From positions 31,127 through 95,126 of the forward strand of contig JACKEV010000010.1 in the NCBI GenBank assembly GCA_020632795.1: a stretch of DNA of 64,000 bases. Reading direction: 5' to 3'. The notes beneath the pieces were generated by a model. That model saw nothing but the letters and a program-made list of their open reading frames with translations. It was not told the origin of the DNA and made no database searches. A program made the position numbers and the translations under genes. The stretch's first letter is position 1; each line of letters begins with the position of its first letter. Source of the DNA: Alphaproteobacteria bacterium. Its GTDB lineage: Bacteria; Myxococcota_A; UBA796; CAJQPC01. This document shows, piece after piece, positions 2,208-53,317 of this stretch.

Positions 2208-2208
2208 C

Positions 2209-3725: not shown

Positions 3726-4569
3726 CGTCGCGCCGAGCTGGCAGGACTTCGCCCTGGCCTTTGAGCTGTTCCGAGACCCGATCCTCTGCGGCATCATCGC
3801 CGGGGCGGTGCTCGGGTATCTGGCCGTGCACATCGTGCTGCGGCGCATGGTGTTCGTCACCGCGACCCTCACCCAGACCGCGGGGCTGGGCGTGGCGCTG
3901 GGCTTCTACGCCGCCATCTTCCTGGAGACCGAGGTCCACCCGGTGGTGAGCGCGCTGGCGGCGTCGCTGACGGCCGCCTGGGTGCTCTCCCTGCCCACCG
4001 ACCGCCTCAAGCTCTCCCGGGAGAGCGTGCTCGCGGCGATGTGGCTGCTGGCGGGGGCGGGGGCGGTGCTGGTGGGGGACCGCATCTCCCAGGAGGCCCA
4101 CGACATCGCCGCGATCCTGTTCGGCACGGCCGTGCTGGTGCGGCCCGAGGACCTGCGCATGGTGGTGGGGGTCGGGGCCCTGGTGCTGGGCGCGGCGTGG
4201 TGGTGGCGCGAGGGCTTCATCTTCGCCGGCTTCGACCGGGAGGGCGCGCGGGTGCAGGGCCTGCCGGTGCGCCTGCTGGACATGGGGCTGCTGGCGCTGA
4301 TCACCTGCATGGTGGCGGTGGCGACCCGTGCGCTGGGGGCGCTGCCGGTGTTCGCGTTCTCGGTGCTGCCGGGCATGGCCGCGCTGATGCTGACCTCGCG
4401 GCTGCGCTGGGCCTTCCCCCTGGCGGCCCTGGGGGGCGCGGCGGCCGGAGGGCTGGGGTACATGGCTGCGTTCTTCCTGGAGTTCCCGGTGGGGGCCTCC
4501 CAGACGGCGGTGGCGGTGCTGCTGGTGGCGCTGGCCGCGCCGGTCCGGCTGGTGCGGGGCGGGCAGTAA
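3718..4569 (+). CDS. Metal ABC transporter permease (ZnuB-like, ABC-3 family)
   Basis: ATG in ATGGATGA overlap with the ATPase stop. Multi-TM protein with ABC-3 permease pattern (…ILCGIIAGAVLGYLAVHIVLRRMVF…). Confidence 0.8.
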   Translation: MDDVAPSWQDFALAFELFRDPILCGIIAGAVLGYLAVHIVLRRMVFVTATLTQTAGLGVALGFYAAIFLETEVHPVVSALAASLTAAWVLSLPTDRLKLSRESVLAAMWLLAGAGAVLVGDRISQEAHDIAAILFGTAVLVRPEDLRMVVGVGALVLGAAWWWREGFIFAGFDREGARVQGLPVRLLDMGLLALITCMVAVATRALGALPVFAFSVLPGMAALMLTSRLRWAFPLAALGGAAAGGLGYMAAFFLEFPVGASQTAVAVLLVALAAPVRLVRGGQ

Positions 4570-4673
4570 GGCGAGCTGGCACGGAATCTGCAAGAAATCT
4601 GCACGTCCCGCTCGGGACGTCCTCCACCCATCCCCCGCTGAAGCTGATCCCGCTGCCGCAGACGGAGAACATC

Positions 4674-4844
4674 ATGGCCCGCTCCCTCACCGTCAAGCAC
4701 ACCGAAGCCCCCGGTACTTCCTCCCTCCTCAACGTCTTCCTCGCCCTGGCGTTCGGCTGGCTCGTGGTCAGCATGCTGGTCGCGGGCGCGACGGCGAGCC
4801 CGGCGGACGCCCCGGTCGAGGCGGCTGTTGTCAACGGGATGTAG
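4674..4844 (+). CDS. Possible small membrane protein (56 aa)
   Basis: ATG preceded by GGAGAA RBS. One hydrophobic helix (LLNVFLALAFGWLVVSMLVAGA). Sits in the otherwise empty 330 bp after the permease. Could be spurious. Confidence 0.25.
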   Translation: MARSLTVKHTEAPGTSSLLNVFLALAFGWLVVSMLVAGATASPADAPVEAAVVNGM

Positions 4845-4905
4845 AACGCCCGCAACAGCATGTAGATTTGACACCGAACAGGCCCCTCGTGGGCCTGTCG
4901 GCGCT

Positions 4906-6570: not shown

Positions 6571-6571
6571 C

Positions 6572-8137: not shown

Positions 8138-8159
8138 GCCCGACAGCGTGCCACAGAAC

Positions 8160-8989
8160 TCAGGCCGCTGAGTAGCAGCTCATGGGCCAGAGGCGGGCGT
8201 AGGGCCGGTCCTCGGAGTTGACCAGCAGCCGCGGCCGGGCCGTGAGCACCTCGCAGCCGCGCCGGGTGACCAGCACCGTGTGCTCGAACTGGGCGGAGAG
8301 GGAGGCGTCGCGGGTCACCGCGGTCCAGCCGTCGCTCAGGACGGAGACCTCGGGGCCGCCCAGGTTGAGCATCGGCTCGATGGTGAAGGCCATGCCGCGC
8401 TTGAGCCGGGGGCCGGTGCCCGGGAAGCCGTAGTGGGGCACGGTGGGCTCGTCGTGGAACACGCGGTTGACGCCGTGGCCGGCGAAGGCCCGCACCACGG
8501 AGCAGCGCTGGGCGCGGGCGAAGCGGGAGATGGCCGCGCCGATGTCCCCCACCCGGGCGCCCGGGCGGACCACCTCCAGGCCGATCTCCAGGCTGCGGCG
8601 GCAGGTCTCGACCAGGTGGATGGCCTGGGGGGAGGGCTCACCGATGTAGAAGGTGGCGCTGGTGTCGCCATGCCAGCCGTGCTTCGCGGGCAGCACCGGG
8701 GTGACGTCGACGTTGAGGATGTCGCCGTCCTGGAGCACGCGCGGGCCGGGGATGCCGTGGCAGACGACCTCGTTGACGCTGGTGCAGACGCTGCGGGGGA
8801 AGCCCCGGTAGTTCAGCGGGCCGGAGCGGGCGCCGCGCGCCTCGGTGAAGGCCACGACGATGTCGTCGATGTCCTGGGTGGTCAGGCCGGGGCGGAGCTG
8901 GTCGCCGACGTGGCAGAGAAGCTCCGCGGCCAGCGCCCCGACGCGCCGCATGGCCTCGATCTCCGGCGCTGTGAGGATGCGGATGCCCA

Positions 8990-8990
<1 letters not shown>
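8160..8990 (-). CDS. map: Methionine aminopeptidase, type I
   Basis: Pita-bread fold motifs: 'VCHGIPGPRVLQDGDILNVDV', 'HGWHGDTSATF', 'FAGHGVNRVFHDEP', 'FTIEPML'. Confidence 0.9.
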
Positions 8991-10051
<1,061 letters not shown>

Positions 10052-10094
10052 TTATGGACCGGCTCTCCGATGACCCCGCAGTGAGGACGCGACG

Positions 10095-11588
10095 ATGCCG
10101 CAGCCGCTCCGGCTCTACAACACCCTGACCCGCACCATCGAGCCCTTCCGCCCCATCGAGGCGGGCAAGGTGAGCCTCTATGTGTGTGGAATGACGGTGT
10201 ATGATCGCCCACATGTGGGTCACGGCCGCGCCTTCGTGGTGTTCGACGCCTTCGTCCGCTACCTGCGCCACCGGGGGTGGGACGTCCGCTTCGTCCGGAA
10301 CTTCACCGACGTGGACGACAAGATCATCGCCCGGGCCAACGAGCGTGGGGAGGACCCCCTCGCCCTGGCCCAGGGCTTCATCGACGTCTTCCACGAGGAC
10401 ATGCGCGCCCTGGGCCTCATCGACCCTGACGTCGAGCCCCGGGTCACCCTGTGCATCCCCCAGATCATCGATCTGGTGCAGTCCCTGGTGGACAAGGGCC
10501 ACGCCTACGCCTCCGAGGGCACGGTCTGGTTCGCCGTCGAGACCTGCGAGGGCTACGGCAAGCTCTCCGGCCAGGACCCCGACAAGCTGCGCAACCCCGA
10601 CGAGCTGGCCGGCAAGCGCGCCCCCGGCGACTTCGCCCTGTGGAAGGCCGCGAAGCCCGGCGAGCCGAGCTGGGAGAGCCCCTGGGGCCCCGGGCGCCCG
10701 GGCTGGCACATCGAGTGCTCCGCGATGTCGCGGACCGAGCTGGGCGAGACCTTCGACATCCACGGCGGCGGGCTCGACCTCGTCTTCCCCCACCACGAGA
10801 ACGAGATCGCGCAGTCGGAGTGCGGCAACGGCGCGCCCTACGCCAACTACTGGATGCACAACGGGCTGCTGACCGCCCCCGGCGGCCAGAAGATGGGCAA
10901 GAGCCTGGGCAACGTCATCGACCTGTCCGATGCGCTGGCCCAATACCCCGCCGAGGCCATCCGGCTGTACTACCTCCAGAACCAGTACCGCTCCCCGCTG
11001 CCGTGGAGCGGCTCGGCGCTGGACGACGCCCTGGCCATGCTGGCCCGGCTCTACGGCGCCCTGGAGGTCGCCCGCACCTTCGGCGGCGACGGCGACGCCG
11101 ACCGCGTCGCCCAGGAGATGGGCAAGCCGGCGCTGACGGTGCTCACCCTGGGCCGGGCCTTCCCCGAGGCCATGTACGCCGCCCTCGATCAGGACTTCAA
11201 CACCGCGCTGGTGCTGGGCCACGCCTTCGAGCTGGCCCGGGCGGTCAACCGCTTCTCCAACCTCAAGAAGGCGAAGAAGCGCGGCGCCCCGGTGATCGCG
11301 CCAGCCCTGGCGGCCTTCGACCTGCTGGCGAAGGCCCTGGGTGTGCTGAGCGCGAGCCCCGACGCCTTCCACGCCGAGGTCATCGACAAGCGACTGGCCG
11401 TGCTGGGGGTGGACCCCGCCGAGGTGGAGCGCCTGATCGCCGAGCGCTCAGAGGCCCGCGCGGCCCGCGACTGGGCGCGGGCGGACGGCATCCGTGACGC
11501 GCTGACCGCGATGCACATCGAGGTGATGGACCGGCCGGACGGCGTCGACTGGCGCGTCCGGCTGACCCCGGTGGAGGACGATCAGTAG
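10095..11588 (+). CDS. cysS: Cysteine--tRNA ligase
   Basis: HIGH motif 'HVGHGR', KMSKS motif 'KMGKSLGN', 'CGMTVYD' zinc-binding region. Full-length class I aaRS. Confidence 0.95.
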
Positions 11589-11905
11589 GCGTTGACCGCG
11601 TCCTTGGCGGCCTTCAGGAACTGCTGGACGGTCGCCGGATCGGTCAGCGCCTCGACCCCGGAGGGGTGGCTGGTGATGGCCTCGTTGAAGGCGAGGGCTG
11701 CGGTCTCGCACATCAGGACCTCGCGCACCGGCTCGAAGCCGACGCCGCCCGGATCATCCCGAAGCACCTTGTTCTTCTTGCCGGGGATCCGGACCGGGAC
11801 CGCCTTGCGACGGAAGGGGTATTCCTTCCGACGGACCTGGATGATCACCTTGTGGGCGGGGCGCTTGGCGGGGACGACGACGCCTGAGGCGTAGCAGCGA
11901 TACAT
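11582..11905 (-). CDS. Hypothetical small basic protein (107 aa)
   Basis: ORF in the cysS-pyrC gap, convergent with cysS. Lys/Arg-rich N-terminal half, no family recognised by eye. Low confidence. Confidence 0.3.
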   Translation of the reverse strand: MYRCYASGVVVPAKRPAHKVIIQVRRKEYPFRRKAVPVRIPGKKNKVLRDDPGGVGFEPVREVLMCETAALAFNEAITSHPSGVEALTDPATVQQFLKAAKDAVNAY

Positions 11906-12055
11906 TCAATCTCCAGAGCTTCGACCCGGCCATCTGGCGGGCGGGTTATCGATCCGGCGCCGCGTGAGGACCCAGGCCTCCGGCGCTCGTCAGCCCCCTG
12001 TGTATCCCCCCGTCTCCGGGGCCGCTACCCGAGAGCCCCGCCACGGAGCCTATCG

Positions 12056-13411
12056 ATGTCCGAGACCTCCTCCAAGACCTTCGACCTGCTCGTGCGTGGC
12101 GGGCGCTGCGTGACCCCTGGCGGCGTCGTCGACGCCGACGTCGGCATCCGCGGCGGGAGAATCGCTGCGATCGGCGCGCTGGGCGCGGCGTCCGCCGCAG
12201 AGGAGATCGACGCCTCGGGCCTGCACGTCCTCCCCGGCCTCATCGACACCCAGGTCCACTTCCGCGAGCCCGGCCTGGAGTACAAGGAGGATCTGGGCAC
12301 CGGCACGGCGGGCGCGGCGCTGGGCGGCATCACGGCGGTCTTCGAGATGCCCAACACCAAGCCCAGCACCCTCACCCACGACGACCTGGCCGACAAGGTC
12401 GCCCGGGGCCGGGCGAAGGGCTGGACCGACTTCGCCTTCTTCATCGGGGCCAGCGCCGAGAACGTCGATCAGCTCGGCGCGATCGAGCAGGACGAGGGCT
12501 GCTGCGGGGTGAAGATCTTCATGGGCAGCTCCACCGGCTCGCTGCTGGTGGACGACCCCGAGGTGCTGGAGCAGGTCCTGCGCAAGGGCCGCCGCCGCGT
12601 GGCCGTGCACTGCGAGGACGAGGCCCGCATGACCGAGCGCTGGCCGCTCACCCAGGTCGACGGCGTGACCGCCCACGTCCACCCGGTGTGGCGTGACGAG
12701 CAGACCGCGTTGATCGCGACCACCCGCCTGCTGGAGGTCGCGCGCCAGGCGGGCCGCCGGGTCCACGTCCTGCACGTCACCACGGCCTCGGAGATGGAGC
12801 TGCTGCGCCACCACAAGGACATCGCCACCGTCGAGGTCACCCCCCAGCACCTCACCCTGCACGCGCCCGACTGCTACGACCGCCTGGGCACCTACGCCCA
12901 GATGAACCCGCCGGTCCGCGGCGCCGAGCACAAGGCCGCCCTGTGGCGGGCGCTGAACGCCGGGGTGGTCGACGTCATCGGCTCGGACCACGCCCCCCAC
13001 ACCCGCGCGGAGAAGGACCTCCCCTACCCGCGCAGCCCCTCGGGCATGCCCGGCGTGCAGACCACCGTGCCGCTGATGCTCGACCACGTCCACCACGGCC
13101 GCCTCAGCCTGCTGCGGGTGGTCGACCTGCTGGCCCACGGCCCCAACCGCATCTACAACATCGCCGGAAAGGGCCGCCTGGTCCTGGGCTACGACGGCGA
13201 CCTCACCCTGGTGGACCTGGCCGAGACCCGCGAGGTCACCGACGACTGGATCGCCTCCCGCAGCGGCTGGTCGCCGTTCACCGGCATGCGCCTGACCGGC
13301 TGGCCGGTCGCCACGATCATCCGGGGGCGGGTCGTCATGCGGGATGGCGAGCTGCTGGGCGCGCCCGGCGGCCAGCCCGTGCGCTTCCAGGACACCCTGC
13401 CCGCCGCGTGA
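12056..13411 (+). CDS. pyrC: Dihydroorotase (class I, multifunctional-type cyclic amidohydrolase)
   Basis: 'DTQVHFREPGLEYKEDLGTGTAGAALGGITAVFEMPNTKP' closely parallels Bacillus PyrC 'DVHVHLREPG…KE…TGT…A..GG.T….MPNT.P'. Metal-ligand His/Asp pattern present. Confidence 0.85.
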   Translation: MSETSSKTFDLLVRGGRCVTPGGVVDADVGIRGGRIAAIGALGAASAAEEIDASGLHVLPGLIDTQVHFREPGLEYKEDLGTGTAGAALGGITAVFEMPNTKPSTLTHDDLADKVARGRAKGWTDFAFFIGASAENVDQLGAIEQDEGCCGVKIFMGSSTGSLLVDDPEVLEQVLRKGRRRVAVHCEDEARMTERWPLTQVDGVTAHVHPVWRDEQTALIATTRLLEVARQAGRRVHVLHVTTASEMELLRHHKDIATVEVTPQHLTLHAPDCYDRLGTYAQMNPPVRGAEHKAALWRALNAGVVDVIGSDHAPHTRAEKDLPYPRSPSGMPGVQTTVPLMLDHVHHGRLSLLRVVDLLAHGPNRIYNIAGKGRLVLGYDGDLTLVDLAETREVTDDWIASRSGWSPFTGMRLTGWPVATIIRGRVVMRDGELLGAPGGQPVRFQDTLPAA

Positions 13412-13974
13412 GGCTCCTCGATCCCTGGCTGGCGCGCTTCGAGGCGCGGCGGGCGCAGCTCGCCGAACAGCCCGGCCCCGACGACGGCTTCGCGCCCTGG
13501 CGCGCAGGGGTGCTGCGCGCGCTGGCCGAGACACCGGTGGCCTTCCTCCGCGCCGACTTCGTCGCTGAGACCGATGACATCGAGATCACGGAGGCGTTCA
13601 CCGGGCTCCGGCCCCGCAGCCTGGACCCGGACCTCTGCTGCGTGGACCAGGGGGTCGAGGCCCTCGTCGGGGGTCTCCCACCGGGCGTCCCACTGGGGGA
13701 GAAGCGGGCCTGGGAGCTGCCCTGGCTCCTGGAGGGCCTCTTGGGCGCGCGCCGGCTGACCGACGCGCTCACCCCGGTGGAGGCTCTGCCGCTGGGGCCC
13801 GAGCCCCGCGCCCTCGGCGTCTTCTACCCCCCCGGCGAGGCCCACCCCGGGGGCGCGGCCCACCTCATGCTCTGCTGGCGGCGGCCCGACGGCGCGATCG
13901 GCCTCGACGACGCGCAGGGGCTCGCCGCGATCTGGGATGTGCGGGGCAACCTGGCGCTGGCCTGGGCCCTCTAA
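13408..13974 (+). CDS. Hypothetical protein, translationally coupled to pyrC
   Basis: GTG start in a GTGA overlap with the pyrC stop. 188 aa with non-biased composition. No family recognised. Confidence 0.45.
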   Translation: MRLLDPWLARFEARRAQLAEQPGPDDGFAPWRAGVLRALAETPVAFLRADFVAETDDIEITEAFTGLRPRSLDPDLCCVDQGVEALVGGLPPGVPLGEKRAWELPWLLEGLLGARRLTDALTPVEALPLGPEPRALGVFYPPGEAHPGGAAHLMLCWRRPDGAIGLDDAQGLAAIWDVRGNLALAWAL

Positions 13975-26119: not shown

Positions 26120-28246
<2,127 letters not shown>

Positions 28247-42095: not shown

Positions 42096-43787
42096 ATGAC
42101 CCTGCTCACCCTGCTGCCCGCCGCCCTGGCACAGGCCCCCGCCTACGCCCCGGCCAGCCCCCTGGACGCCCCGGTCACCGGCGGCGAGCTGCGCGTGGCC
42201 GGCGCCACCTCCCTGCCGATGGTGTCCCAACGCTTCGAGGTCGAGCTGCACAGCGGCGTGGCCGCCGTGCACATCACCCAGGTCTTCGAGAACCCCTTCG
42301 ACGAGACCGTGGCGGGCCTCTACGCCCTGGCCCTGCCCCTGGGCTCGGCGGCCACCGAGGTCACCCTGTACGCCGACGACCGGGTCATCGACGCCCGCAT
42401 CGGCACGCTGCCCCCTCGCCCCGAGGGCACGCCCTGGGTGCGGCCCCCCGGGGCGTCGGTGGCCCTGGCCGTGGACGGCGTCTGCCCCGGCTCGGTGCTG
42501 GTCGCCGAGGTCGAGGCCCTGGTCCCGGCGGGCTGGAGCGGCGAGGAGTGGACCCTCTCCCTGCCCATCGAGGCCCCCGTCGAGCCCGTCGCCCCCTGGC
42601 AGAGCCCTGCGCCGCCGGTGACCGAGGTGGCCGTGCGCCACCCCGGCGTGTCCGACTGGACCACCCTCACCCCCGAGCCCGACGCGCCGCTGACGCTGCG
42701 CTGGCCCTCGGTCCCGCTGGCCTGGCTGAGCGATGAGGGGGTGCTCGCCCTGGAGCTGCCCGGCGACGCCGTGGTCCGCGGGGTCTCCTTCCCCGGGCTG
42801 GAGGCGGTGGCGTCGAGCTGGAGGGGGGGCGACGGGGTGCCCTGGCGCATGATCGCCGAGGTGAACGGCGCGCCGTCGGGCCCGGGGGAGGCGGTCGTCG
42901 TGCGCGACGGTGTCCGGGAGCGCCTGTCCATCGACGTCGTGGAGGTCGACAGCCCCGCGATCCCGGCGCTGTGGGCCTCTCGGCAGATGCACGCCCTCGA
43001 CGACCCCGACGCCCGGCGCCGCATCGCTCTGGCCTACGGGCTGCCCGAGGAGGGGCTCGGGCTGGTGCAGGTGGCCTCCGCGCCCTGCCCCTGCGACGAC
43101 GAGCCCCCGCGCTTCGCCTCCGCTGGCTGGGGCCTGGGGGGCATGGGCGCGTCGGAAGGGGCGAGCTGCATCGAGCCCTACCAGCAGCTCGTCGCCGGGC
43201 GGCTGGAGTGGTTCGGCTGCGGGCCAGGGCTGTGGGGCAACGGCATGGGCGGAGGGGGCGTGATGGGCGGCTTCGGCGCCCCCGGGCAGCGGGAGGAGCT
43301 GCCACCAGCCGCCCTGGCCGAGGGCCCCTCCATCGGCATCGGCGGCGTCGTCCAGCGCGCACCCGCGGTGCAGAGGACGCCTGCGCTGGCGACGCTCGCG
43401 CCGAACGCCAGCGCCGAGGGCGCGACCGGCCCCGGCCTGCTGGGCGGGGAGGACCCCTTCGGCGACCGCGCCGAGGACCTCGACGCCCGCCAGCTCCGCG
43501 CCCTCATCGACCAGCGCATCAAGCGCGACCTCAACAGCGTCGAGGCCTGCTACCGCCGCGCCCTGCGCCTGGAGCCGACCCTGGAGGGCGAGGTGGTGGT
43601 GCAGTTCGCGCTGGCCCCCGGCGGGGACGGCCTGCCGGACGACCTCTCCTTGAGCCGCTCCACCCTGCGCGCCCCCAGCGTGGAGGCCTGCGTGCTCGAC
43701 CAGCTCCGGTGGATGAAGTTCCCGACCCCCCTGGAGGCGCCCGTGGTGGTGCGCTACCCGTTCAGCTTCCGGCCCGAGGACGCATAG
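42096..43787 (+). CDS. VIT (vault protein inter-alpha-trypsin) domain protein with AgmX/PglI-type C-terminal domain
   Basis: After the signal peptide, 'LPMVSQRFEVELHSGVAAVHITQVFENPFDETVAGLYALALPLGSAATEVTLYADDRVIDARI' matches the VIT domain pattern. Gly/Met-rich linker. C-terminal about 90 aa ('IKRDLNSVEACYRRAL…VVVQFAL…VVVRYPFSF') resembles the AgmX C-terminal domain. Confidence 0.7.
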   Translation: MTLLTLLPAALAQAPAYAPASPLDAPVTGGELRVAGATSLPMVSQRFEVELHSGVAAVHITQVFENPFDETVAGLYALALPLGSAATEVTLYADDRVIDARIGTLPPRPEGTPWVRPPGASVALAVDGVCPGSVLVAEVEALVPAGWSGEEWTLSLPIEAPVEPVAPWQSPAPPVTEVAVRHPGVSDWTTLTPEPDAPLTLRWPSVPLAWLSDEGVLALELPGDAVVRGVSFPGLEAVASSWRGGDGVPWRMIAEVNGAPSGPGEAVVVRDGVRERLSIDVVEVDSPAIPALWASRQMHALDDPDARRRIALAYGLPEEGLGLVQVASAPCPCDDEPPRFASAGWGLGGMGASEGASCIEPYQQLVAGRLEWFGCGPGLWGNGMGGGGVMGGFGAPGQREELPPAALAEGPSIGIGGVVQRAPAVQRTPALATLAPNASAEGATGPGLLGGEDPFGDRAEDLDARQLRALIDQRIKRDLNSVEACYRRALRLEPTLEGEVVVQFALAPGGDGLPDDLSLSRSTLRAPSVEACVLDQLRWMKFPTPLEAPVVVRYPFSFRPEDA

Positions 43788-46017: not shown

Positions 46018-47142
46018 ATGCGCCTCACCCCGCTCGCCGCCCTGCTCGCGGTCGGCTGCGCCACCTACGACACCACCTTCGTCACCGACAAGAGTGACCC
46101 CGGCGACACCGGCTGCCCCGACGCGCAGACCTGGTACGAGGATCGGGACGGTGACGGCTGGGGCGCGGGCAGCGGCGTGACCGCCTGCGAGGCCCCCGGC
46201 GAGGGCTGGCTCACCGACGGCGGCGACTGCGACGACGCCAACGCCGCGATCCTGCCCGGCGCCGACGAGCTGTGCGACGGCCAGGACGGCGACTGCGACG
46301 GCACGGTGGACGAGTCCCCCACCGACGCCTCGACCTTCTGGAGCGACGTGGACGCCGACGGCTACGGCGACCCCGACAACCCCGTCGAGGCCTGCGAGGC
46401 CCCTGAGGGCGCGGTCGACAACGCCGACGACTGCGACGACTACGACCCCAACCAGCACCCCGGCGTCGAGGAGATCTGCGACGGCCAGGACCAGGACTGC
46501 GACGGCGACGTCGACGAGGAGGCCGTCGACGCCTCCACCTGGTACGCCGACACCGACCTGGACGGCTGGGGGGTCGAGACCCCCACCGCCGAGTCCTGCA
46601 CCCAGCCCGAGGGCTACGCCGACAACCCCGACGACTGCGACGACACCGACGCCTCGCTGACCGACAACTGCTCCGGCGGGCCGACCACCTCCGTCGGCAC
46701 CTGCACCGGCACCCTCTACACCTGGACCGAGACCAGCCCCGACACCCCAGAGCTGCACATCGTGGGGCTCTACGAGTCCGACGGCGGCCACGGCAACCCC
46801 CCGGGCACCACCACCATCACCGTCGACCGGGAGACGGAGATGACCCTGGTGCTGTCCAGCTACGAGCCGGTGAACTGGATCGTCACCACCGCCCCCAACA
46901 CCGTGCTCAACGAGGTCATCCTCAACGGCTACAACAACCACTCCGCCACCGTGCCCTCCGGGGTGCCGGTCACCGACCTCAGCGGCCGAGGCAACTACAT
47001 GGTCGCCTGCGGCTACGCCTGGCCCTCCAGCAGCGGCGGCTGCGACACCCCGGGGCTGGTGGGCGGCAGCGAGGGCTTCACCGGCCTGAACCTGGCGAGC
47101 TTCACCGGCTGCTACCACGGGACCGCGTTCACGATCCAGTGA
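46018..47142 (+). CDS. Lipoprotein with MopE-like Cys/Asp-rich repeats and an uncharacterised C-terminal domain
   Basis: Lipobox LAVGC. About 4 MopE-like repeats ('DCDDxDPNQHPGVEEICDGQDQDCDGDVDE…WYADTDLDGWG'). Confidence 0.8.
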   Translation: MRLTPLAALLAVGCATYDTTFVTDKSDPGDTGCPDAQTWYEDRDGDGWGAGSGVTACEAPGEGWLTDGGDCDDANAAILPGADELCDGQDGDCDGTVDESPTDASTFWSDVDADGYGDPDNPVEACEAPEGAVDNADDCDDYDPNQHPGVEEICDGQDQDCDGDVDEEAVDASTWYADTDLDGWGVETPTAESCTQPEGYADNPDDCDDTDASLTDNCSGGPTTSVGTCTGTLYTWTETSPDTPELHIVGLYESDGGHGNPPGTTTITVDRETEMTLVLSSYEPVNWIVTTAPNTVLNEVILNGYNNHSATVPSGVPVTDLSGRGNYMVACGYAWPSSSGGCDTPGLVGGSEGFTGLNLASFTGCYHGTAFTIQ

Positions 47143-49079
47143 GCACCGCCCTGCCCCCTGCTGTTGCCGTCCCTCGGCCCCTCCCCCTGCTGCTCGTGGC
47201 GGTCGCGCTGAGCGGCTGCGGCATCTTCATCACCGAGAAGGAGTACGCCGAGCGCCTGGATCTCGACGGAGACGGGGTCCAGGTCGAGGAGGACTGCGAC
47301 GACCAGGACCCGACCGTCGGGGGGCCGACGACCTTCTACGCGGACGCCGACGGCGACGGCTTCGGCGACCCCGAGGCCGCGACCGAGGCCTGCTCAGCCC
47401 CCGTCGGGTCGACAGACAACGCCGACGACTGCGACGACACCGACCCCGCCACCCACCTCGGCGCCCCCGAGGACTGCGCGGAGGTCGACCGGGACTGCGA
47501 CGGGGTGGGGGTGGAGGACGACGCCGCCGACGCCCCCGCCTGGTACCCCGACGCTGACGGCGACGGCTTCGGCGACCCGGCGAACCCGACGCGGGCCTGC
47601 GTCCAGCCGGACGGCGCCCTGGACAACGCCCAGGACTGCGACGACACCGACCCCGCCATCTACCCAGACGCCCCCGAGCTGTGCGGGGACCTCGTCATCA
47701 ACGACTGCGAGCTGTCCGCCGCCGAGGCCTGGGCGGTCTGCGCGCGGACCGGCGAGGTGCCGGACGACGACGCCGACGCCGCATGGATCGGCGACACCCC
47801 CTTCGGCGCTGCCAGCCTCTCCGTCGCCGGGGTGGGTGACGTCAGCGGCGACGGCCTGGACGACGTGGTGCTCGGCTCCCCCTACGACGACGTCAACGGC
47901 GGCAGCTCGGGCACCGCCTTCCTGGTGCTGGGCCCGGCCAGCGCCCTGGCGACCCTGGACGACGCCGACGCCCTGCTGGTCGGCGAGGCCGGGGGCGCGG
48001 CGTCGGGGTGGTCGGTGTCCGGCGCGGGGGACACCGACGGCGACGCCGCGCGGGAGATCCTGGTCGGCGCGCCCTCCCTGGACACAGTCGTGAGCGACGG
48101 CGGCGCGGCCTACCTGATCGAGGGCCCGGTCGGCGGCACCCTGGAGCTGTCCCAGGCCGACGCCCGCGTCCGGGGCGCCACGGCGTCCGGCGAGCTGGGC
48201 CGGCGGGTGGCCGGCCTGGGCGATGTGAACGGCGACGGCCTCGACGACATCGGGATCACCACCCTGGGCGCCGACACGCAGGGCGTGGTCCTCGTGTTCC
48301 TGGGCCCCCTGTCCGGCGAGGTGGACCCGACGGACGCCGACACCCGGATCGAGGGGGGCCAGGCCGGGGGGCAGCTCGGGGTCGGCCTCGCGGGGCAGAT
48401 GGACCTCGACGGGGACGGCCACGGCGACCTCGCCCTGGGCAGCCCCTTCATCAACGCCGGCCAGCCCGGCGCGGTCGCGGTGTTCGCCGGGCCTCTGCCC
48501 GGCGGGGAGGTGTCGGACAACGACGCCCAGGCCCGGATCCTGAGCGAGGAGGTCGACGACCGCCTCGGCGTGTCCGTGGCCGGGGTCCAGGACCTCGACG
48601 GCGACGGCACTGACGAGCTGATCGTCGGCGCCTCCCAGCACGACGGCGTCGGCAGCAACTCCGGCGGCGCCTGGATCTTCAGCGGGCCGCTCGCCGGCTC
48701 GCTGGCCCGGGACGACTACCGAACCGCCTTCAACGGGGACTCCAGCAACGACGGCGTGGGCACCGCGGTCAGCGGGGCGCGGGCCCAGGCCGGCGCGCCG
48801 GGCTCGGTCTGGATCGGCGCCCCGGGCGAGAGCGCCGGAGGATGGATCGGCGGGGCGGTCTACCTGGTGCACGACCCGGCCCCGGGGCTGCTCACCCTGA
48901 CCGACGCGGACCTCGTGCTGCGGGGCAGCGCCAGCCTGGGGGCCCTGGGCAGCGCGGTGGCCGAGGCCGGCGACGTCAACGGCGACGGCATCCCGGACCT
49001 CGTGGCCGGCGCCCCGGGGGACAGCGCCGGCGCGGGCCTGGGGGGCGTGGGGTACCTGCTGCTGGGGGCGGGGTACTGA
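47139..49079 (+). CDS. Lipoprotein with MopE-like repeats followed by FG-GAP/integrin-alpha-like repeats
   Basis: GTG in GTGA overlap; lipobox LSGC. N-terminal MopE-like repeats. Then repeated 'GxGDVNGDGxDDxxxG' FG-GAP motifs (for example 'VAGLGDVNGDGLDDIGI'). Confidence 0.8.
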   Translation: MSTALPPAVAVPRPLPLLLVAVALSGCGIFITEKEYAERLDLDGDGVQVEEDCDDQDPTVGGPTTFYADADGDGFGDPEAATEACSAPVGSTDNADDCDDTDPATHLGAPEDCAEVDRDCDGVGVEDDAADAPAWYPDADGDGFGDPANPTRACVQPDGALDNAQDCDDTDPAIYPDAPELCGDLVINDCELSAAEAWAVCARTGEVPDDDADAAWIGDTPFGAASLSVAGVGDVSGDGLDDVVLGSPYDDVNGGSSGTAFLVLGPASALATLDDADALLVGEAGGAASGWSVSGAGDTDGDAAREILVGAPSLDTVVSDGGAAYLIEGPVGGTLELSQADARVRGATASGELGRRVAGLGDVNGDGLDDIGITTLGADTQGVVLVFLGPLSGEVDPTDADTRIEGGQAGGQLGVGLAGQMDLDGDGHGDLALGSPFINAGQPGAVAVFAGPLPGGEVSDNDAQARILSEEVDDRLGVSVAGVQDLDGDGTDELIVGASQHDGVGSNSGGAWIFSGPLAGSLARDDYRTAFNGDSSNDGVGTAVSGARAQAGAPGSVWIGAPGESAGGWIGGAVYLVHDPAPGLLTLTDADLVLRGSASLGALGSAVAEAGDVNGDGIPDLVAGAPGDSAGAGLGGVGYLLLGAGY

Positions 49080-49571: not shown

Positions 49572-52316
49572 ATGATGCTGCATCCGCGCCAGGCGCTCGC
49601 AGAGCTGCTGCTCTCCCTGATGGACCACGACCAGCTCCGTCGCCTGCTGGCCCGACTTCCCCAGGGCGAGGACATCCTGGCCCTGGAGCACCCGGCCTCG
49701 CCGGAGGCGTTCGTGGACAGCGCGGTGGCCGCGCTGGAGCGCCGTGCGCTCATCGACCGGTCCTTCTTCGACCTGCTCATCGACACCCACCCCCGTCGGC
49801 GCGCTGACATCGAGCGGATCGCCGCGATGTGGGCGGAGGACACCTCGGACCCGGACACCTTCTCCGAGCTGCTGCCCCAGGCCTTCGCGCCTGAGGAGGC
49901 CCAGGGCTGGCTGGAGTCGGTGCCCCTGTCCACCGAGGAGTCCGAGGCCCTCCAGGAGTCGGAGGACGTCTTCGAGCGGGCCCGGAAGGCGGTCGCCCTC
50001 AAGGGGGAGGCGGCGGTGCGCTCGCTCCAGCAGGCCCGCCCGGCGCGCGCCCGGGAGATCGCGGCGCTGGCGGCGAAGGAGGGGCTGGCGGCGCCGGGGG
50101 ACGCGCTGGCGCCGAAGGGATCGGCGGCGCCGCTGAAGGTGGTCATCGCCTGCGATCGCGCGCGCATGGACGACGCGCGCACCCTGGGCGCCGCCCTGGC
50201 GGAGGTCAGCTCGATGCCCCACGAGGTCGCCGTGCGGGACGGCGGCTGGCGCGGGCGCAGCGAGGCCGCCGACCGGCTGAGCCTCTTCGTCGAGGACCTG
50301 CCTTCGATGGAGGGCCCCATCGACCTCCTCGTCGTGCTGCTGGGGGAGTCCTTCGTCTCGGCGGGGCTCTCCCCACACCTCCCGCCCCTGCCCCCCGCGA
50401 TCCGGCTGGCGGTCCCCATCCTGATCGGCGCGGTCGCGGGGCCCCAGGCGCCCCTCCCGGCGCGATGGCACACCCTGCTGTGGAGCTGGGCCCCCGGCGT
50501 GCCGCTGTCCGGTGACCGCGAGGCGGCGTGGCTGAAGGTGGCCCAGGGGCTGCGTCCGCTGATGGAGGCGCTGCACTTCGGCGCGCCGCTGCCGACGGCG
50601 ATACCGGGCCCACCGACCCCGCCCCAGCCCTCGGCGAAGCAGGCCCCGCCCGAGCCCGCCGCCCAGCAGGCACCCGAGCCCGCGGCCCAGCCCCCACCGG
50701 AGCCGCCGCGTCGGACCGAGCCCCCGCCCCTGCCTCCCGGCCTCGTCCTCGGCCTGCGCAACGACCGCCCCACCCCCGACGACGCCCTCGGCTTCGGCCC
50801 CTACGCCCGCGCCCTGGCGGACCTGCTCGCCCACCCCGACACCCGGCCGCCGCTGACGGTGTCCGTGGAGGGGGCCTGGGGCGCGGGCAAGTCCAGCTTC
50901 CTGCTCCAGCTCGAGGACGCCCTGCGCAAGAAGTACGGCGACAACATGGTCACCCTGCGCTTCAACGCCTGGCGCTACGAGCAGGCCGAGGCGATGTGGT
51001 CGGCCTTCGCCCTGGGCATGCTGCGGGAGATGGAGCGGGGCATGGGCTGGTGGCCGCGGCTGCGGGCGCGCCTGGCGCTGCGGCTGCGGCGCGCGCGGGC
51101 CTCGAACCAGTGGGAGCCCCTGGTGCGGGGGCTGGTCCTCACCGCGACCGGGCTGGCGCTGGCGGTGCTCGTGGTGCTGCTCCCCGGGACCTGGACGCTG
51201 GGGGTGCTGGAGCTGATCCAGGGCGACGCCGCCACCCCGCCGTGGGTGTCGGTGCTGGGCAAACCGGGCTCCCTGGTGTTCCACCTGGCCATCGCGCTGG
51301 GCGGCCTGGGTGCCATCGGGGCGAAGCTGCGGGGCCTGTGGGACAGCCCCCTGGCGGAGGACCTGCGCGCGGCGGTGACCGACCCCGGCTACACCAGCCA
51401 CACCCCCTTCCTGGACCAGCTCCACGACGACCTGCGCTTCATGCTGGACGCCTTCGCTCAAAAGCGAACAGTGTTCGTTTTTGTCGACGACCTCGACCGC
51501 TGCGAGGTGCCCCGGGCCGCCGAGCTGATGCAGGCGGTCAACCTGCTCCTGCTGGACCCGACCGACCGGGACGCGCCCCCCGCGCCGGTGATCTTCGTGC
51601 TGGCGATGGACCGGGAGAAGGTCGCGGCGGGCTTCGCGGCGCGGCACAAGGCGGTGCTGCCCTACCTGAACGCGGCCTCCTCCAACGGGGCGGCCGAGGG
51701 CATGGCGGGGCTGGAGTACGGCTACGCGTTCATCGAGAAGTTCCTCCAGCTCCCCTTCAGGCTGCCGACGCCCGACCTGCGGGCGCTGAGCGCGATGGCC
51801 TTCCGGAACCCGGACGCCCAGGCCGCCGCGGACGCCGCCACCCAGCAGGACTACCTGCGCCTGATCCTGCGGGCCGAGGCGGTCGATGAGGTGCTGCCCC
51901 TGGTGGTCCCCGCGCTGGGGCAGAACCCCCGGCGTCTGAAGCAGCTCCTCAACCTCTACGCCCTCCAGGCCCGGCTCGCGGCCGAGGCGGGGGCGCTGGC
52001 GGTGGGCGGCGAGCCCCACAAGCTCACCAAGGAGCGGCTGGCGAAGCTGGTGGCGATGGCCCTGCGCTGGCCCGCGCTCGTCACGGACCTGCACCGCGAG
52101 GCGGGCCTGCTGGAGGCGCTGCAGATCGGGGCGCTCGCGCCGGAGTCCATCGCGGCCACGAAGGACCTGAGCGCCCGCACCCGGCGCTGGCTGGCCCGCC
52201 CCGAGCTGATGGCCTTCCTGGCGACCGGCTGCCGCACCCTGGACGACCCGGCGAGCCTCGCCCACGTCGACGTGCGGGTGGTGCTGGGGGCGACCCCGCT
52301 GCGGGGGGTGGACTAA
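49572..52316 (+). CDS. KAP-family P-loop NTPase with N-terminal death-like/effector-associated helical domain
   Basis: Walker A 'GAWGAGKSSFL', Walker B 'VFVFVDDLDRCEVPRAAELMQAVNLLL' (KAP-type DDLDRC). Two TM helices inserted inside the NTPase domain, which is the KAP hallmark. The N-terminal about 90 aa ('ALAELLLSLMDHDQLRRLLARLPQ…') is helical and adaptor-like. Confidence 0.85.
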   Translation: MMLHPRQALAELLLSLMDHDQLRRLLARLPQGEDILALEHPASPEAFVDSAVAALERRALIDRSFFDLLIDTHPRRRADIERIAAMWAEDTSDPDTFSELLPQAFAPEEAQGWLESVPLSTEESEALQESEDVFERARKAVALKGEAAVRSLQQARPARAREIAALAAKEGLAAPGDALAPKGSAAPLKVVIACDRARMDDARTLGAALAEVSSMPHEVAVRDGGWRGRSEAADRLSLFVEDLPSMEGPIDLLVVLLGESFVSAGLSPHLPPLPPAIRLAVPILIGAVAGPQAPLPARWHTLLWSWAPGVPLSGDREAAWLKVAQGLRPLMEALHFGAPLPTAIPGPPTPPQPSAKQAPPEPAAQQAPEPAAQPPPEPPRRTEPPPLPPGLVLGLRNDRPTPDDALGFGPYARALADLLAHPDTRPPLTVSVEGAWGAGKSSFLLQLEDALRKKYGDNMVTLRFNAWRYEQAEAMWSAFALGMLREMERGMGWWPRLRARLALRLRRARASNQWEPLVRGLVLTATGLALAVLVVLLPGTWTLGVLELIQGDAATPPWVSVLGKPGSLVFHLAIALGGLGAIGAKLRGLWDSPLAEDLRAAVTDPGYTSHTPFLDQLHDDLRFMLDAFAQKRTVFVFVDDLDRCEVPRAAELMQAVNLLLLDPTDRDAPPAPVIFVLAMDREKVAAGFAARHKAVLPYLNAASSNGAAEGMAGLEYGYAFIEKFLQLPFRLPTPDLRALSAMAFRNPDAQAAADAATQQDYLRLILRAEAVDEVLPLVVPALGQNPRRLKQLLNLYALQARLAAEAGALAVGGEPHKLTKERLAKLVAMALRWPALVTDLHREAGLLEALQIGALAPESIAATKDLSARTRRWLARPELMAFLATGCRTLDDPASLAHVDVRVVLGATPLRGVD

Positions 52317-53317
52317 CCCTCGATCAATGCGTCGAGGGAGGGAGCGTCGAGGACCCGGCGGGTCCAGGCGTCGAGCTGCTCCAGGGAGGCGGCGCGGATG
52401 CGCTCGGCCTGGGGCTCGGCGGGGAGGCCGAAGCGCAGGGTGACGAGGGTGAGCAGGGCTTCGCGGAGGCCCTCCTGTCGGCCTTCCTGGCGGCCCTCCT
52501 GGCGGCCCTCCTGGCGGCCGACCTGGAGGCCCTGGCGGCGGCCCTGCTCGCGGAGCTTGTCGGCCATGGTCATAACGGTGTCCTCGTACTCGGGCTCCAG
52601 GGCGTCGCACAGGAGCTTGAGCTTGTGGGGGTCGGGGTACTCGTCTCGCACGGAGACAATATATTCGATGGTCAGGCGGATCAGGGGCTCGCCGCCGAGC
52701 TGGCCGGCGCGGCGGAAGGAGAGCCTCCAGCCGGGGAGCAGCTCCCAGAAGCGGCGTTGGCGGCTGTGCTTGAGCAGCAGCAGGGCGACGAGGGGCTCCA
52801 GGTCGGCGTCGGGCACCTCGCCGAGGTCCTGGAGCAGGATGCGCAGGGCCGGGAGGTAGGGGGCGACAGGAGCCTCGGCCTCGGGGGTGAGGTTGTACAG
52901 CTCCCGGAGGGTGGTGGGCCCCGTCCAGGGCCCCTTGCCGTGGTAGACGACGACGGGCAGCAGGGCGGGCAGCCCCTCTGCGTCGGGGTTGGCCTGCTCC
53001 CAATTGGACCAGGCGCGGGTGGCGTAGCGGTGCATGCGCCAGGGCATGTCGCGGCGCACCCAGGAGCTGTGCTCGACGAGGACGTAGATGAGGAAGGCGC
53101 CGCCAGCGCGGGTGGGGACCTCGAAGAGCAGGTCGGAGAGGTGTTCTTTGAGGGCATCGTCGACGAAGTGGCCGTCGGCGAGGCGCAGCGCGTCGAGCTG
53201 GAGGTGCTCGACGAGGGCCGGGGGCAGGCACTGGTGGAGGAGGAGCGCGGCCGCCTCGGGCTGGGAGAAGAAGCCGCGGAAGAGCAGGTCGTGGGGGTTG
53301 GGTGGCATGGCCTCCAA
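52313..53317 (-). CDS. Rpn-family recombination-promoting nuclease/putative transposase (PD-(D/E)XK, YhgA-like)
   Basis: 'HDLLFRGFFSQPEAAALLL…' N-terminus, 'FLIYVLVEHSS' core, and a DUF4351-like C-terminus. Internal (QEGR)x4 tandem repeat. Confidence 0.8.
   Translation of the reverse strand: MEAMPPNPHDLLFRGFFSQPEAAALLLHQCLPPALVEHLQLDALRLADGHFVDDALKEHLSDLLFEVPTRAGGAFLIYVLVEHSSWVRRDMPWRMHRYATRAWSNWEQANPDAEGLPALLPVVVYHGKGPWTGPTTLRELYNLTPEAEAPVAPYLPALRILLQDLGEVPDADLEPLVALLLLKHSRQRRFWELLPGWRLSFRRAGQLGGEPLIRLTIEYIVSVRDEYPDPHKLKLLCDALEPEYEDTVMTMADKLREQGRRQGLQVGRQEGRQEGRQEGRQEGLREALLTLVTLRFGLPAEPQAERIRAASLEQLDAWTRRVLDAPSLDALIEG
52469..52528. repeat. 12-bp tandem repeat (about 5 units, ggccctcctggc type) inside the Rpn nuclease gene, encoding (QEGR)n
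   Basis: Direct reading of 'ggccctcctgtcggccttcctggcggccctcctggcggccctcctggcggcc'. Confidence 0.8.

What the first reader, a model, noticed from the sequence alone, without database searches (positions are those of the whole stretch)
49572..52316. KAP-family NTPase with N-terminal death-like/effector-associated helical domain next to an Rpn-family nuclease: candidate conflict system
Seen in sequence: Walker A 'GAWGAGKSSFL' and KAP-type Walker B 'VFVFVDDLDRC', with two TM helices inserted within the P-loop domain ('LVLTATGLALAVLVVLLPGTW', 'LVFHLAIALGGLGAIGA'). That insertion is the defining KAP feature. The first about 90 aa ('MMLHPRQALAELLLSLMDHDQLRRLLARLPQGEDILALEHPASPEAFVDSAVAALERRALIDRSFFDLLIDTHP') are an all-helical module with the L-x-x-L-x-x-L periodicity of death-like 'effector-associated' adaptor domains. 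Residues about 190-330 ('LKVVIACDRARMDDARTLGAALAEV…LLVVLLGESFVS') have an alpha/beta pattern that may be a TIR- or other effector-type domain; that is my inference only. A Pro-rich linker follows. Established knowledge: bacterial KAP NTPases with N-terminal adaptor or effector domains are recurrent in anti-phage and conflict islands. The gene is convergent, with a 4-bp overlap, with an Rpn-family PD-(D/E)XK nuclease and divergent from a DUF2141 gene.
Basis: partly seen in the sequence, partly recalled or inferred. Interest (0 to 1): 0.65.

Follow-up and report, generated by a model that had tools for sequence, protein, structure and literature searches.

The report
Death-fold adaptors fused to KAP NTPase
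This gene encodes a membrane-anchored KAP-type ATPase carrying two "death-domain-like" adaptor modules and a degenerate TIR-like domain. It is a rare domain combination within a known class of bacterial immune and conflict proteins, and the nuclease gene next to it looks like a chance neighbour.

Summary
It is a KAP-family P-loop NTPase (Pfam 2.5e-27) with conserved Walker A and B motifs and a two-helix membrane hairpin between them.

Residues about 186-336 are flavodoxin-like and resemble TIR at profile level (hhalign 78%). The catalytic glutamate position is occupied by a conserved LPPLPP motif.

The KAP-Rpn pairing is not conserved: 0 of 85 relatives' loci hold an Rpn gene, and the two genes are convergent. 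The window is not a defence island.

Best reading: a single-gene, NTPase-switched conflict protein that recruits effectors tagged with the same module and encoded elsewhere. EAD-KAP fusions and anti-phage KAP NTPases are already published. This exact architecture occurs in only two known proteins.

The parts
49572..52316 (+). Whole gene, 914 aa: Death-like x2, TIR-like, Pro-rich linker, KAP NTPase with TM hairpin, C-terminal helical extension
   Evidence: ORF; GC3 0.96; identical to NCBI MAG protein H6739_20510; the same gene is called on an independent assembly
49581..49853 (+). Death-fold adaptor module a (residues 4-94), EAD7-like
49860..50081 (+). Death-fold adaptor module b (residues 97-170), a divergent second copy that keeps the ARPxRAxEI motif
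   Evidence: hhalign against the module alignment A3: probability 95.1%, P 3e-8, score 43.3, versus at most 16.6 in 30 shuffles. HMM i-Evalue 0.0026. Six further helices in the model.
50127..50579 (+). Flavodoxin-like alpha/beta domain (residues 186-336); TIR-like but without the catalytic Glu (conserved LPPLPP at residues 270-275)
50580..50759 (+). Pro/Ala/Gln-rich linker (residues 337-396)
   Evidence: 23 prolines in 60 residues; internal 24-nt tandem duplication at 50649-50696
50760..51959 (+). KAP-family P-loop NTPase domain (residues 397-796)
   Evidence: Pfam PF07693 2.5e-27, 96 bits against a cutoff of 20; 82 relatives at 25-40% identity
50871..50903 (+). Walker A (GAWGAGKSSFL, residues 434-444)
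   Evidence: Read directly. E433, G434, W436, G437, G439, K440 and S442 are 100% conserved in the 44 aligned clade members.
51132..51323 (+). Transmembrane hairpin inserted in the NTPase domain (TM1 residues 521-541, TM2 residues 568-584)
   Evidence: Kyte-Doolittle maxima 2.37 and 1.76. At least two hydrophobic segments between Walker A and B in 27 of 44 relatives.
51471..51503 (+). Walker B (VFVFVDDLDRC, residues 634-644)
   Evidence: Read directly; in the DDLDRC motif D, D, D and R are 100% conserved and L and C 98% in the clade
51960..52313 (+). C-terminal helical extension (residues 797-914), constant across the KAP clade
   Evidence: Many relatives cover 98-99% of the 522-aa KAP-half query. 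No Pfam hit for residues 818-914 scanned alone.
52313..53317 (-). Adjacent Rpn/YhgA-family PD-(D/E)XK gene. Listed as context only and judged NOT part of the system.
   Evidence: PF04754 3.7e-41. TIGR01784 52.0 bits against a cutoff of 52.1. Convergent with a 4-bp stop overlap. No Rpn homolog in any of 85 loci of KAP relatives.

Best explanation
This is a stand-alone, membrane-anchored KAP-NTPase conflict protein, most likely anti-phage or programmed-cell-death type.

Shown:
- A complete KAP P-loop module with intact Walker A and B motifs and a two-helix membrane hairpin.
- It is preceded by an array of non-catalytic domains: two Death-fold, EAD7-like adaptor modules and a TIR-like alpha/beta domain that lacks the catalytic glutamate. 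A proline-rich tether joins them to the NTPase.
- In related KAP proteins the NTPase core is constant, while the appended domains are swapped among effectors (TIR), adaptors (EAD5) and repeat sensors (TPR, LRR, WD40).
- The Death-fold module elsewhere sits on TIR, kinase, CHAT, STAND and FGE-sulfatase proteins, and occurs on adjacent gene pairs.

Inferred:
- The KAP core acts as an NTP-dependent switch at the inner membrane.
- On activation it oligomerises and presents its Death-fold modules. These modules, and possibly the dead TIR-like scaffold, recruit and concentrate effector proteins carrying the same module through homotypic contacts. Those effectors are encoded elsewhere in the genome. 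This is the 'EAD principle', analogous to CARD or Death-domain recruitment in inflammasomes and the Myddosome.
- The neighbouring Rpn nuclease and DUF2141 genes are incidental.
For: - KAP domain and motifs.
- The module is mobile: 969 representatives. In the 150 best it lies N-terminal (100), C-terminal (31), internal (26) or stand-alone (13).
- Fusion partners among 108 proteins scanned: TIR_2 15, Pkinase 13, AAA_16 9, CHAT 5, nSTAND1 4, FGE-sulfatase 4, EAD5 4, SEFIR 3, EAD7 3.
- Weak Pfam matches point to EAD7, then EAD8 and EAD1.
- The same module occurs on adjacent genes in L010 and L011.
- Second copy at residues 97-170.
- TIR-like profile match with the Glu position replaced.
- Domain swapping around a constant KAP core, with TIR recurrently fused to or next to this KAP clade.
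- Variable genomic context and patchy distribution across phyla and archaea.
- Literature: EADs fused to the N-termini of STAND or KAP NTPases, with further copies on effectors (PMC8195603). Single-gene KAP NTPases with appended regions give Walker-B-dependent phage defence (PMC13552941). Bacterial CARD-like domains are required in defence systems (PMC10312443).
Against: - No second copy of the module exists in the 64-kb window. No same-genome partner could be identified.
- The surrounding genes are not defence genes.
- There is no compositional sign of recent transfer, no tRNA in the window, and no flanking repeat pair around the gene.
- None of 80 KAP-clade loci in species genomes carries the module, so the adaptor-KAP coupling rests on two proteins.
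- No sensor domain is evident.
- The TIR-like assignment is only moderately supported.
- Nothing was tested experimentally.
Confidence: 0.5

Rival explanations
1. A self-contained abortive-infection or exclusion protein of the PifA type. The Death-like and TIR-like domains serve only for self-oligomerisation or autoinhibition. The effector is the membrane hairpin and NTPase itself, acting by membrane perturbation, and no partner proteins are involved.
For: - No partner module in the window.
- The protein has a TM hairpin.
- The P-loop part resembles PifA, QatA and PDC-S20 models.
- Single-gene KAP proteins defend on their own (PMC13552941).
- A bacterial CARD-like domain can act in auto-repression (PMC10312443).
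Against: - The module family is typically shared between separate proteins and adjacent genes.
- PADLOC matches cover only about 90 residues of PifA's 720 positions.
- The tested EF_KAP was reported not to act by abortive infection and needed its appended region.
Confidence: 0.25
2. One reading: the KAP NTPase and the adjacent Rpn-family PD-(D/E)XK nuclease form a two-gene conflict system, with an NTPase sensor and a nuclease effector.
For: The genes are immediately adjacent with a 4-bp overlap. The Rpn gene is a genuine YhgA/Rpn-family member.
Against: - The genes are convergent, so they are not co-transcribed.
- 0 of 85 loci of KAP relatives contain an Rpn homolog within about 6-10 kb.
- The closest homolog, P0002, is followed by a MerR/B12-binding gene.
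- The Rpn protein has no Death-like module.
Confidence: 0.04
3. The middle domain is an active TIR NADase, or a signal-generating TIR. The protein would then be a Death-TIR effector switched on by the KAP NTPase.
For: - TIR-like profile similarity.
- Genuine TIR_2 domains are fused to relatives of this KAP clade.
- TIR_2 is joined to this Death-like module in 15 of 108 proteins.
Against: - The position of the catalytic Glu (consensus CREEL) aligns to LSPHLP/LPPLPP in the window protein and to a matching Glu-free stretch in P0002.
- There is no Pfam TIR hit even at E<=10.
- Fold matches are non-specific.
Confidence: 0.06
4. It is not an immune gene. It would be a membrane-associated scaffold for developmental, kin-recognition or envelope signalling in a complex-lifestyle bacterium, using Death-like adaptors for a non-defence assembly.
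For: - The neighbourhood is rich in secreted MopE/FG-GAP proteins, a glycosyltransferase, a GDSL hydrolase and a hybrid histidine kinase.
- There are no defence-island features.
- A CARD-NLR-like system has been co-opted for gene-transfer-agent release (PMC13236601).
Against: - There is no synteny with the closest homolog.
- The contexts of relatives are all different.
- The module's partners are classic conflict effectors.
Confidence: 0.12

Closest known systems
EAD-tagged NTPase conflict systems (Kaur, Burroughs, Iyer, Aravind, eLife 2020 PMC7159879 and eLife 2021 PMC8195603), specifically N-terminal EAD1/2/7/8 on STAND, KAP or AP-GTPase proteins
   Same: A small, non-catalytic, all-alpha adaptor sits at the N-terminus of a KAP ATPase. 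The same adaptor occurs on TIR, kinase, caspase-like, STAND and FGS proteins and on neighbouring genes. The weak Pfam matches are to EAD7, EAD8 and EAD1.
   Different: - The published KAP examples carry a C-terminal FGS (FGE-sulfatase) sensor, often linked to DGRs. This protein has none.
- It has a tandem pair of adaptors plus a degenerate TIR-like domain.
- It does not reach Pfam EAD7's gathering score.
- No partner copy is present within 64 kb.
Single-gene KAP P-loop NTPase anti-phage proteins (EF_KAP and three metagenomic examples; PLoS Biol 2026, PMC13552941)
   Same: A KAP NTPase with membrane helices is fused to a variable, uncharacterised appended region. The Walker B motif is intact.
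   Different: - Their variable region is C-terminal and of unknown fold. Here it is N-terminal and made of recognisable adaptor folds.
- No close sequence relationship was shown.
- This protein has not been tested for function.
PifA (F plasmid) and QatA (QatABCD), the classical defence-linked KAP NTPases
   Same: Same P-loop family. PADLOC and NCBIfam models match the Walker A region (PifA 5.4e-19, QatA 8e-21).
   Different: - Matches cover only about 80-90 residues.
- The QatA score is 74 bits against a cutoff of 600.
- There are no QatB, QatC or QatD neighbours.
- Those proteins have no Death-like or TIR-like domains.
Bacterial CARD-like and Death-like domains in gasdermin and CARD-NLR-like defence systems (Wein et al., PMC10312443; LypABC, PMC13236601; PDB 9frr, 8ss1)
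   Different: - No detectable sequence similarity.
- Those domains sit on trypsin-like proteases or NLR-like STAND ATPases in three- or four-gene operons. Here the domain is on a membrane KAP NTPase in a single gene.
MyD88 (animal Death domain + TIR adaptor)
   Same: The domain order is Death-fold followed by a TIR-like domain, both non-catalytic adaptors.
   Different: This is an analogy only. There is no sequence homology, the TIR-like assignment is moderate, and the array is fused to a membrane NTPase.

Membership tests
KAP-family P-loop NTPase (Pfam PF07693; Aravind et al. 2004) | Profile match above the curated threshold | tested here: met
   96.3 bits against a cutoff of 20, E 2.5e-27, residues 409-796
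KAP-family P-loop NTPase (Pfam PF07693; Aravind et al. 2004) | Intact Walker A (GxxGxGK[ST]) and Walker B (hhhhDDLDR) | tested here: met
   GAWGAGKS at residues 434-441 and VFVFVDDLDRC at residues 634-644. Both are invariant in the clade alignment.
KAP-family P-loop NTPase (Pfam PF07693; Aravind et al. 2004) | Transmembrane helices inserted within the NTPase domain, between Walker A and Walker B | tested here: met
   Two hydrophobic segments at residues 521-541 and 568-584, with Kyte-Doolittle maxima 2.37 and 1.76. The same feature is present in 27 of 44 relatives. Hydropathy only; no dedicated TM predictor was run.
Death-fold superfamily (DD, DED, CARD, PYD, bacterial DLD) | Compact six-helix bundle, topologically superposable on solved Death-fold domains | tested here: met
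Death-fold superfamily (DD, DED, CARD, PYD, bacterial DLD) | Sequence-level relationship to a solved Death-fold domain | tested here: not met
   A profile of 50 module copies against all PDB sequences gave no Death-fold hit at E<=10
Death-fold superfamily (DD, DED, CARD, PYD, bacterial DLD) | Homotypic interaction or oligomerisation | not testable with these tools
   Needs two-hybrid, pull-down or multimer modelling
Effector-associated domains (EAD; Kaur et al. 2020), EAD7 in particular | Small non-catalytic domain found at the termini of many different effector and sensor proteins of conflict systems | tested here: met
   TIR_2, Pkinase, AAA_16/nSTAND1, CHAT, SEFIR, FGE-sulfatase, EAD5
Effector-associated domains (EAD; Kaur et al. 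2020), EAD7 in particular | A further copy of the same domain on an adjacent gene or elsewhere in the same genome | tested here: inconclusive
   For the family: adjacent-gene copies in 2 of 4 loci examined, L010 and L011. For this gene: none in the 64-kb window.
Effector-associated domains (EAD; Kaur et al. 2020), EAD7 in particular | Pfam EAD7 (PF19960) score at or above the gathering threshold | tested here: not met
   The window protein gave no hit at E<=10. P0002 scored 21 bits against a cutoff of 32. Only 6 of 50 module copies hit EAD7, and only weakly, with a best E of 4.3e-4.
TIR domain | Flavodoxin-like alpha/beta fold | tested here: met
TIR domain | Sequence or profile similarity to TIR families | tested here: inconclusive
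   No Pfam TIR or TIR_2 hit at E<=10. hhalign against a TIR_2 alignment built here: probability 78%, score 35.4, versus at most 15.9 for shuffles and 11.8 for REC.
TIR domain | Catalytic glutamate after beta-C (NADase-type TIRs) | tested here: not met
   The aligned position is LSPHLP/LPPLPP in the window protein. P0002 also has no Glu there.
QatABCD / PifA defence systems | Full-length equivalog match, and for Qat the presence of QatB, QatC and QatD neighbours | tested here: not met
   QatA 74 bits against a cutoff of 600, matching residues 397-478 only. The PifA model matched positions 14-105 of 720. Neighbours are DUF2141, Rpn, GDSL and a glycosyltransferase.
Proposed KAP-Rpn two-gene conflict system | Conserved adjacency or co-orientation of the two genes in relatives | tested here: not met
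   The genes are convergent. tblastn with the Rpn protein found nothing in 12 + 80 fetched loci, 85 of which are loci of KAP relatives.

The most novel reading that the evidence does not exclude
The N-terminal array (Death-fold, Death-fold, catalytically dead TIR-like) is a bacterial, membrane-tethered counterpart of a MyD88-type adaptor, hard-wired to a KAP NTPase. On activation it would nucleate a mixed Death/TIR higher-order assembly at the membrane, a 'Myddosome-like' hub. The hub would template and activate separately encoded Death-TIR and Death-kinase effectors. That would make an inactive TIR a dedicated polymerisation seed in a prokaryotic immune pathway.
Probability: 0.12. Interest if true: 0.7.

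Novelty: new variant of a known kind. Interest (0 to 1): 0.4.

Why it matters
If the model is right, this protein links two themes so far studied separately in bacterial immunity. One is the membrane KAP NTPases, recently shown to be anti-phage but with unknown mechanism. The other is the Death-fold and TIR adaptor logic shared with animal innate immunity.

Its appended domains are all non-catalytic. That makes it a clean test case for whether a KAP NTPase acts by recruiting effectors through homotypic adaptors rather than by carrying its own effector.

The work also delimits a large Death-fold module family (about 1000 cluster representatives) that current Pfam EAD models mostly miss.

The practical significance is modest. 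The general principle is already published, and nothing here is shown experimentally.

Tried and rejected
- **Pfam on sub-regions at E<=10:** no hit for the window protein's N-terminus, middle domain, inter-domain helices or C-terminus. Only P0002's N-terminus hit EAD7, and weakly.
- **Foldseek of the 1-345 model against PDB:** nothing significant, only generic flavodoxin folds. The afdb50 library was unavailable.
- **Profile of the module against PDB sequences:** no Death-fold hit.
- **Search for same-genome partners:**
  - the k-mer homolog search with the module alone found nothing;
  - cluster look-ups of 20 module proteins gave no organism link;
- **Synteny between the window and the closest homolog's locus:** none beyond the gene itself.
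- **Rpn pairing:** rejected.
- **QatA or PifA membership:** rejected.
- **Defence-island context:** rejected. The PADLOC hits on the 929-aa neighbour fall in what Pfam identifies as the receiver/HATPase regions of a hybrid histidine kinase, and the pVip hit falls on the generic radical-SAM core of a radical-SAM/SPASM protein.
- **Mobile-element signatures around the gene:** no tRNA in the window, no flanking repeat pair, and no integrase or transposase family among the neighbouring proteins scanned, apart from the Rpn/YhgA gene itself, which Pfam files as Transposase_31.
- **REC-like reading of the alpha/beta domain:** hhalign score 11.8. The control profile had only two sequences, so this is a weak rejection.
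Full report
**Observation**

The window is about 73% GC. The ORF 49572..52316 (+) encodes 914 aa. Its codon-position GC (0.78/0.50/0.96) is that of the other real genes in the window. The protein is identical to a deposited MAG protein, H6739_20510, labelled 'Alphaproteobacteria bacterium'. An independent assembly calls the same gene.

- Walker A GAWGAGKSSFL, residues 434-444
- Walker B VFVFVDDLDRC, residues 634-644
- two hydrophobic segments, residues 521-541 and 568-584, between the Walker motifs, with hydropathy maxima 2.37 and 1.76

Pfam gives KAP_NTPase at 2.5e-27 over residues 409-796. The gene converges on a YhgA/Rpn-family gene (PF04754, 3.7e-41), and the stop codons overlap by 4 bp. 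It diverges from a DUF2141 gene that really starts at 49499.

**The KAP half**

Searching with residues 393-914 found 82 relatives at 25-40% identity. In an alignment of the 44 closest, the EGxWGxGKSS and DDLDRC motifs are essentially invariant. Twenty-seven of the 44 show at least two hydrophobic segments between them.

What surrounds this constant core changes from protein to protein: TIR_2 at either end, EAD5, a receiver domain, TPR, LRR, WD40, or a peptidoglycan-binding domain.

A scan of species-representative genomes found at least 507 relatives, and the 80 best loci were kept. They are scattered over Acidobacteriota, Chloroflexota, filamentous Cyanobacteria, Planctomycetota, Myxococcota, Actinomycetota and methanogenic and halophilic archaea.

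The PADLOC and NCBIfam models for PifA, QatA and PDC-S20 match only the 70-90 residues around Walker A. QatA scores 74 bits against a cutoff of 600. The protein is therefore in the same superfamily but belongs to none of those systems.

**The N-terminal module**

The closest homolog is P0002, from a sister MAG. It is 60% identical in the KAP half and 32% identical over residues 9-334. The N-terminal 345 residues are therefore a conserved part of the protein.

A two-sequence profile of that region was run exhaustively against 1.84 billion cluster representatives. It returned 969 proteins at E<=1e-3. All of the 150 best match only profile positions of about 5-100. Only P0001 and P0002 match the rest.

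In those 150 proteins the module is N-terminal (100 copies), C-terminal (31), internal (26) or stand-alone (13), and 13 proteins hold several copies.

Among 108 full-length proteins scanned with Pfam, the partners are TIR_2 (15), protein kinase (13), AAA_16 (9), CHAT (5), nSTAND1 (4), FGE-sulfatase (4), EAD5 (4), SEFIR (3), calcineurin-like phosphoesterase (3), EAD7 (3) and PNP_UDP (2). This is the effector and sensor repertoire of the 'effector-associated domain' conflict systems (PMC7159879; PMC8195603).

The module itself gets only sub-threshold Pfam matches. They go to EAD7 (P0002 2.9e-4; 6 of 50 isolated copies), then to EAD8 and EAD1.

The 'EAD principle' is visible for this family. In L010 a small EAD5+module protein is followed directly by a kinase carrying the module. 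In L011 a two-copy protein is followed by an FGE-sulfatase gene with a partial copy.

**A second copy**

Residues 97-170 form six more helices in the 1-345 model. They align to the module profile with hhalign probability 95%, P 3e-8 and score 43.3. Thirty column shuffles gave at most 16.6, and the reversed sequence gave 12.5. The copy keeps the ARPxRAxEI motif. The protein therefore has a tandem pair of Death-fold modules.

**The middle alpha/beta domain**

The model shows strands at residues 188-194, 217-223, 250-257 and 277-284, with flanking helices and a long final helix at 316-336. The pLDDT here is mostly 60-89.

The structural evidence does not single out TIR:
- Foldseek against PDB finds nothing significant.
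- Pfam finds no TIR.

The profile evidence does favour TIR. Shuffles gave at most 15.9, the reversed sequence 12.5, and a small receiver-domain profile 11.8. The match spans beta-C, beta-D and alpha-E:
- LLVVLLGESF against VLVVLLSPSY
- AVPILIG against VVPVLLEG
- the final Wxxxxxxl helix

At the position of the catalytic glutamate (consensus CREEL), the window protein has LSPHLP followed by LPPLPP. P0002 has no glutamate there either.

I conclude it is probably a degenerate TIR-like domain and very probably not an NADase. True TIR_2 domains are fused to members of this KAP clade (L023 C-terminal; L045 and L090 N-terminal) or encoded beside them (L018, L033, L092). This makes a decayed TIR at this position plausible.

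**Context**

The neighbourhood holds:
- secreted MopE/FG-GAP proteins
- DUF2141
- the Rpn gene
- a GDSL hydrolase
- a glycosyltransferase
- a MarR regulator
- DUF2147
- a radical-SAM/SPASM protein
- a hybrid histidine kinase

None is a recognised defence gene. There is no tRNA in the window, no flanking repeat pair around the gene, and no compositional anomaly. The six-frame translation of the whole window holds no further copy of the Death-like module.

The closest homolog lies among radical-SAM genes and is followed by a MerR/B12-binding gene. It shares no synteny with the window. Four further relatives have four different neighbourhoods. One of them is a clear defence and mobile island with AbiJ, a kinase-HD protein and CHAT.

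The Rpn protein has no homolog in any of the 12 + 80 fetched loci. The KAP-Rpn pairing is therefore a coincidence of this genome, and the genes are convergent in any case.

**Mechanism**

Shown: the domain anatomy, the constancy of the KAP core with swapped appendages, the Death fold and EAD-like behaviour of the module, and the loss of the TIR catalytic residue.

From the literature:
- EADs on the N-termini of STAND or KAP NTPases, with further copies on effectors, are proposed to recruit those effectors homotypically (PMC8195603).
- Single-gene KAP NTPases with appended regions confer phage defence that requires Walker B and the appended region (PMC13552941).
- Bacterial CARD-like domains are essential in gasdermin-type and related systems, and can also auto-repress (PMC10312443).

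Inferred: the membrane KAP core is the switch. Its N-terminal, wholly non-catalytic array is the output interface, which recruits module-tagged effectors encoded elsewhere. I give this 0.5.

The main rival, at 0.25, is a self-contained PifA-like membrane effector in which the array only mediates self-assembly or autoinhibition. A non-immune scaffold (0.12), an active TIR (0.06) and the KAP-Rpn system (0.04) follow.

**Novelty and verdict**

The kind is known: EAD-tagged NTPases, and anti-phage KAP NTPases. Three things are new here:
- The particular architecture: tandem Death-fold modules, a dead TIR-like domain, a proline tether and a KAP core without any FGS-type sensor. The middle region was found in only two proteins among 1.84 billion representatives. 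None of the 80 KAP-clade loci carries the module.
- The delimitation of a large Death-fold module family that Pfam's EAD7 model barely reaches.
- The finding that the Rpn link is not real.

A specialist would find this a tidy example rather than a surprise. It is a new variant of a known kind, with interest 0.4.

Noticed in passing
window 30836-33337 (-): An 833-aa protein has Pfam matches to Major Vault Protein pieces (MVP_shoulder 2.4e-16, Vault_3 4.6e-8, Vault repeat 6.9e-4), so it is a bacterial MVP homolog. A protein with a sub-threshold VIT-domain match (25.4 bits against a cutoff of 26.5) lies at 42096-43787 (+).
   Followed up: no
window 26120-28246 (+), 34482-36848 (-), 46018-47142 (+), 47139-49079 (+): A family of large proteins built from MopE 'Cu-binding' repeats, combined with Fibrinogen_C-like (two of them) or FG-GAP (one) domains. 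The last two genes overlap by 4 bp and look like an operon. FG-GAP repeats show up as 192-nt-spaced DNA repeats.
   Followed up: partly
window 52313-53317 (-), about residues 255-275 of the Rpn protein (DNA 52475-52519): The Rpn/YhgA-family protein contains a perfect tandem peptide repeat, GRQEGRQEGRQEGRQEG (12-nt DNA period). It lies between the nuclease core and the C-terminal DUF4351 and causes spurious FliH and Yae1_N hits.
   Followed up: no
P0002 (locus L001 10001-13225), protein residues about 415-570: The linker of the closest homolog is about 160 aa longer and contains an internal duplication. The duplication repeats the 'QDLDEQRVVAG...APSG' stretch and the pre-Walker-A motif 'KLVL..RS.SL.LLDDRP..EDKL' (sequence). 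This suggests a recent partial duplication at the start of the KAP module.
   Followed up: no
L092 9495-12790; L005 about 2100-13875: Some KAP-clade relatives sit in obvious immune islands. L092 has three consecutive TIR-domain ORFs downstream of the KAP gene. L005 has AbiJ_NTD3, a TrwB-like ATPase, a kinase with an HD-associated domain and a TPR-CHAT protein around it.
   Followed up: partly
L012 9017-17401: P0011 (2466 aa) combines WD40, CHAT, four tandem copies of the Death-like module and a STAND-type ATPase. It is preceded by a MoxR-like AAA (AAA_5) gene, which resembles the MoxR-centred ternary conflict systems described by Kaur et al..
   Followed up: partly
window, whole: The source MAG is labelled 'Alphaproteobacteria bacterium'. 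However, its 73% GC and its gene content (MopE/FG-GAP secreted proteins, an MVP homolog, WD40 proteins, protoglobin) look more like a Myxococcota-type organism. The taxonomic label may be unreliable and was not tested.
   Followed up: no
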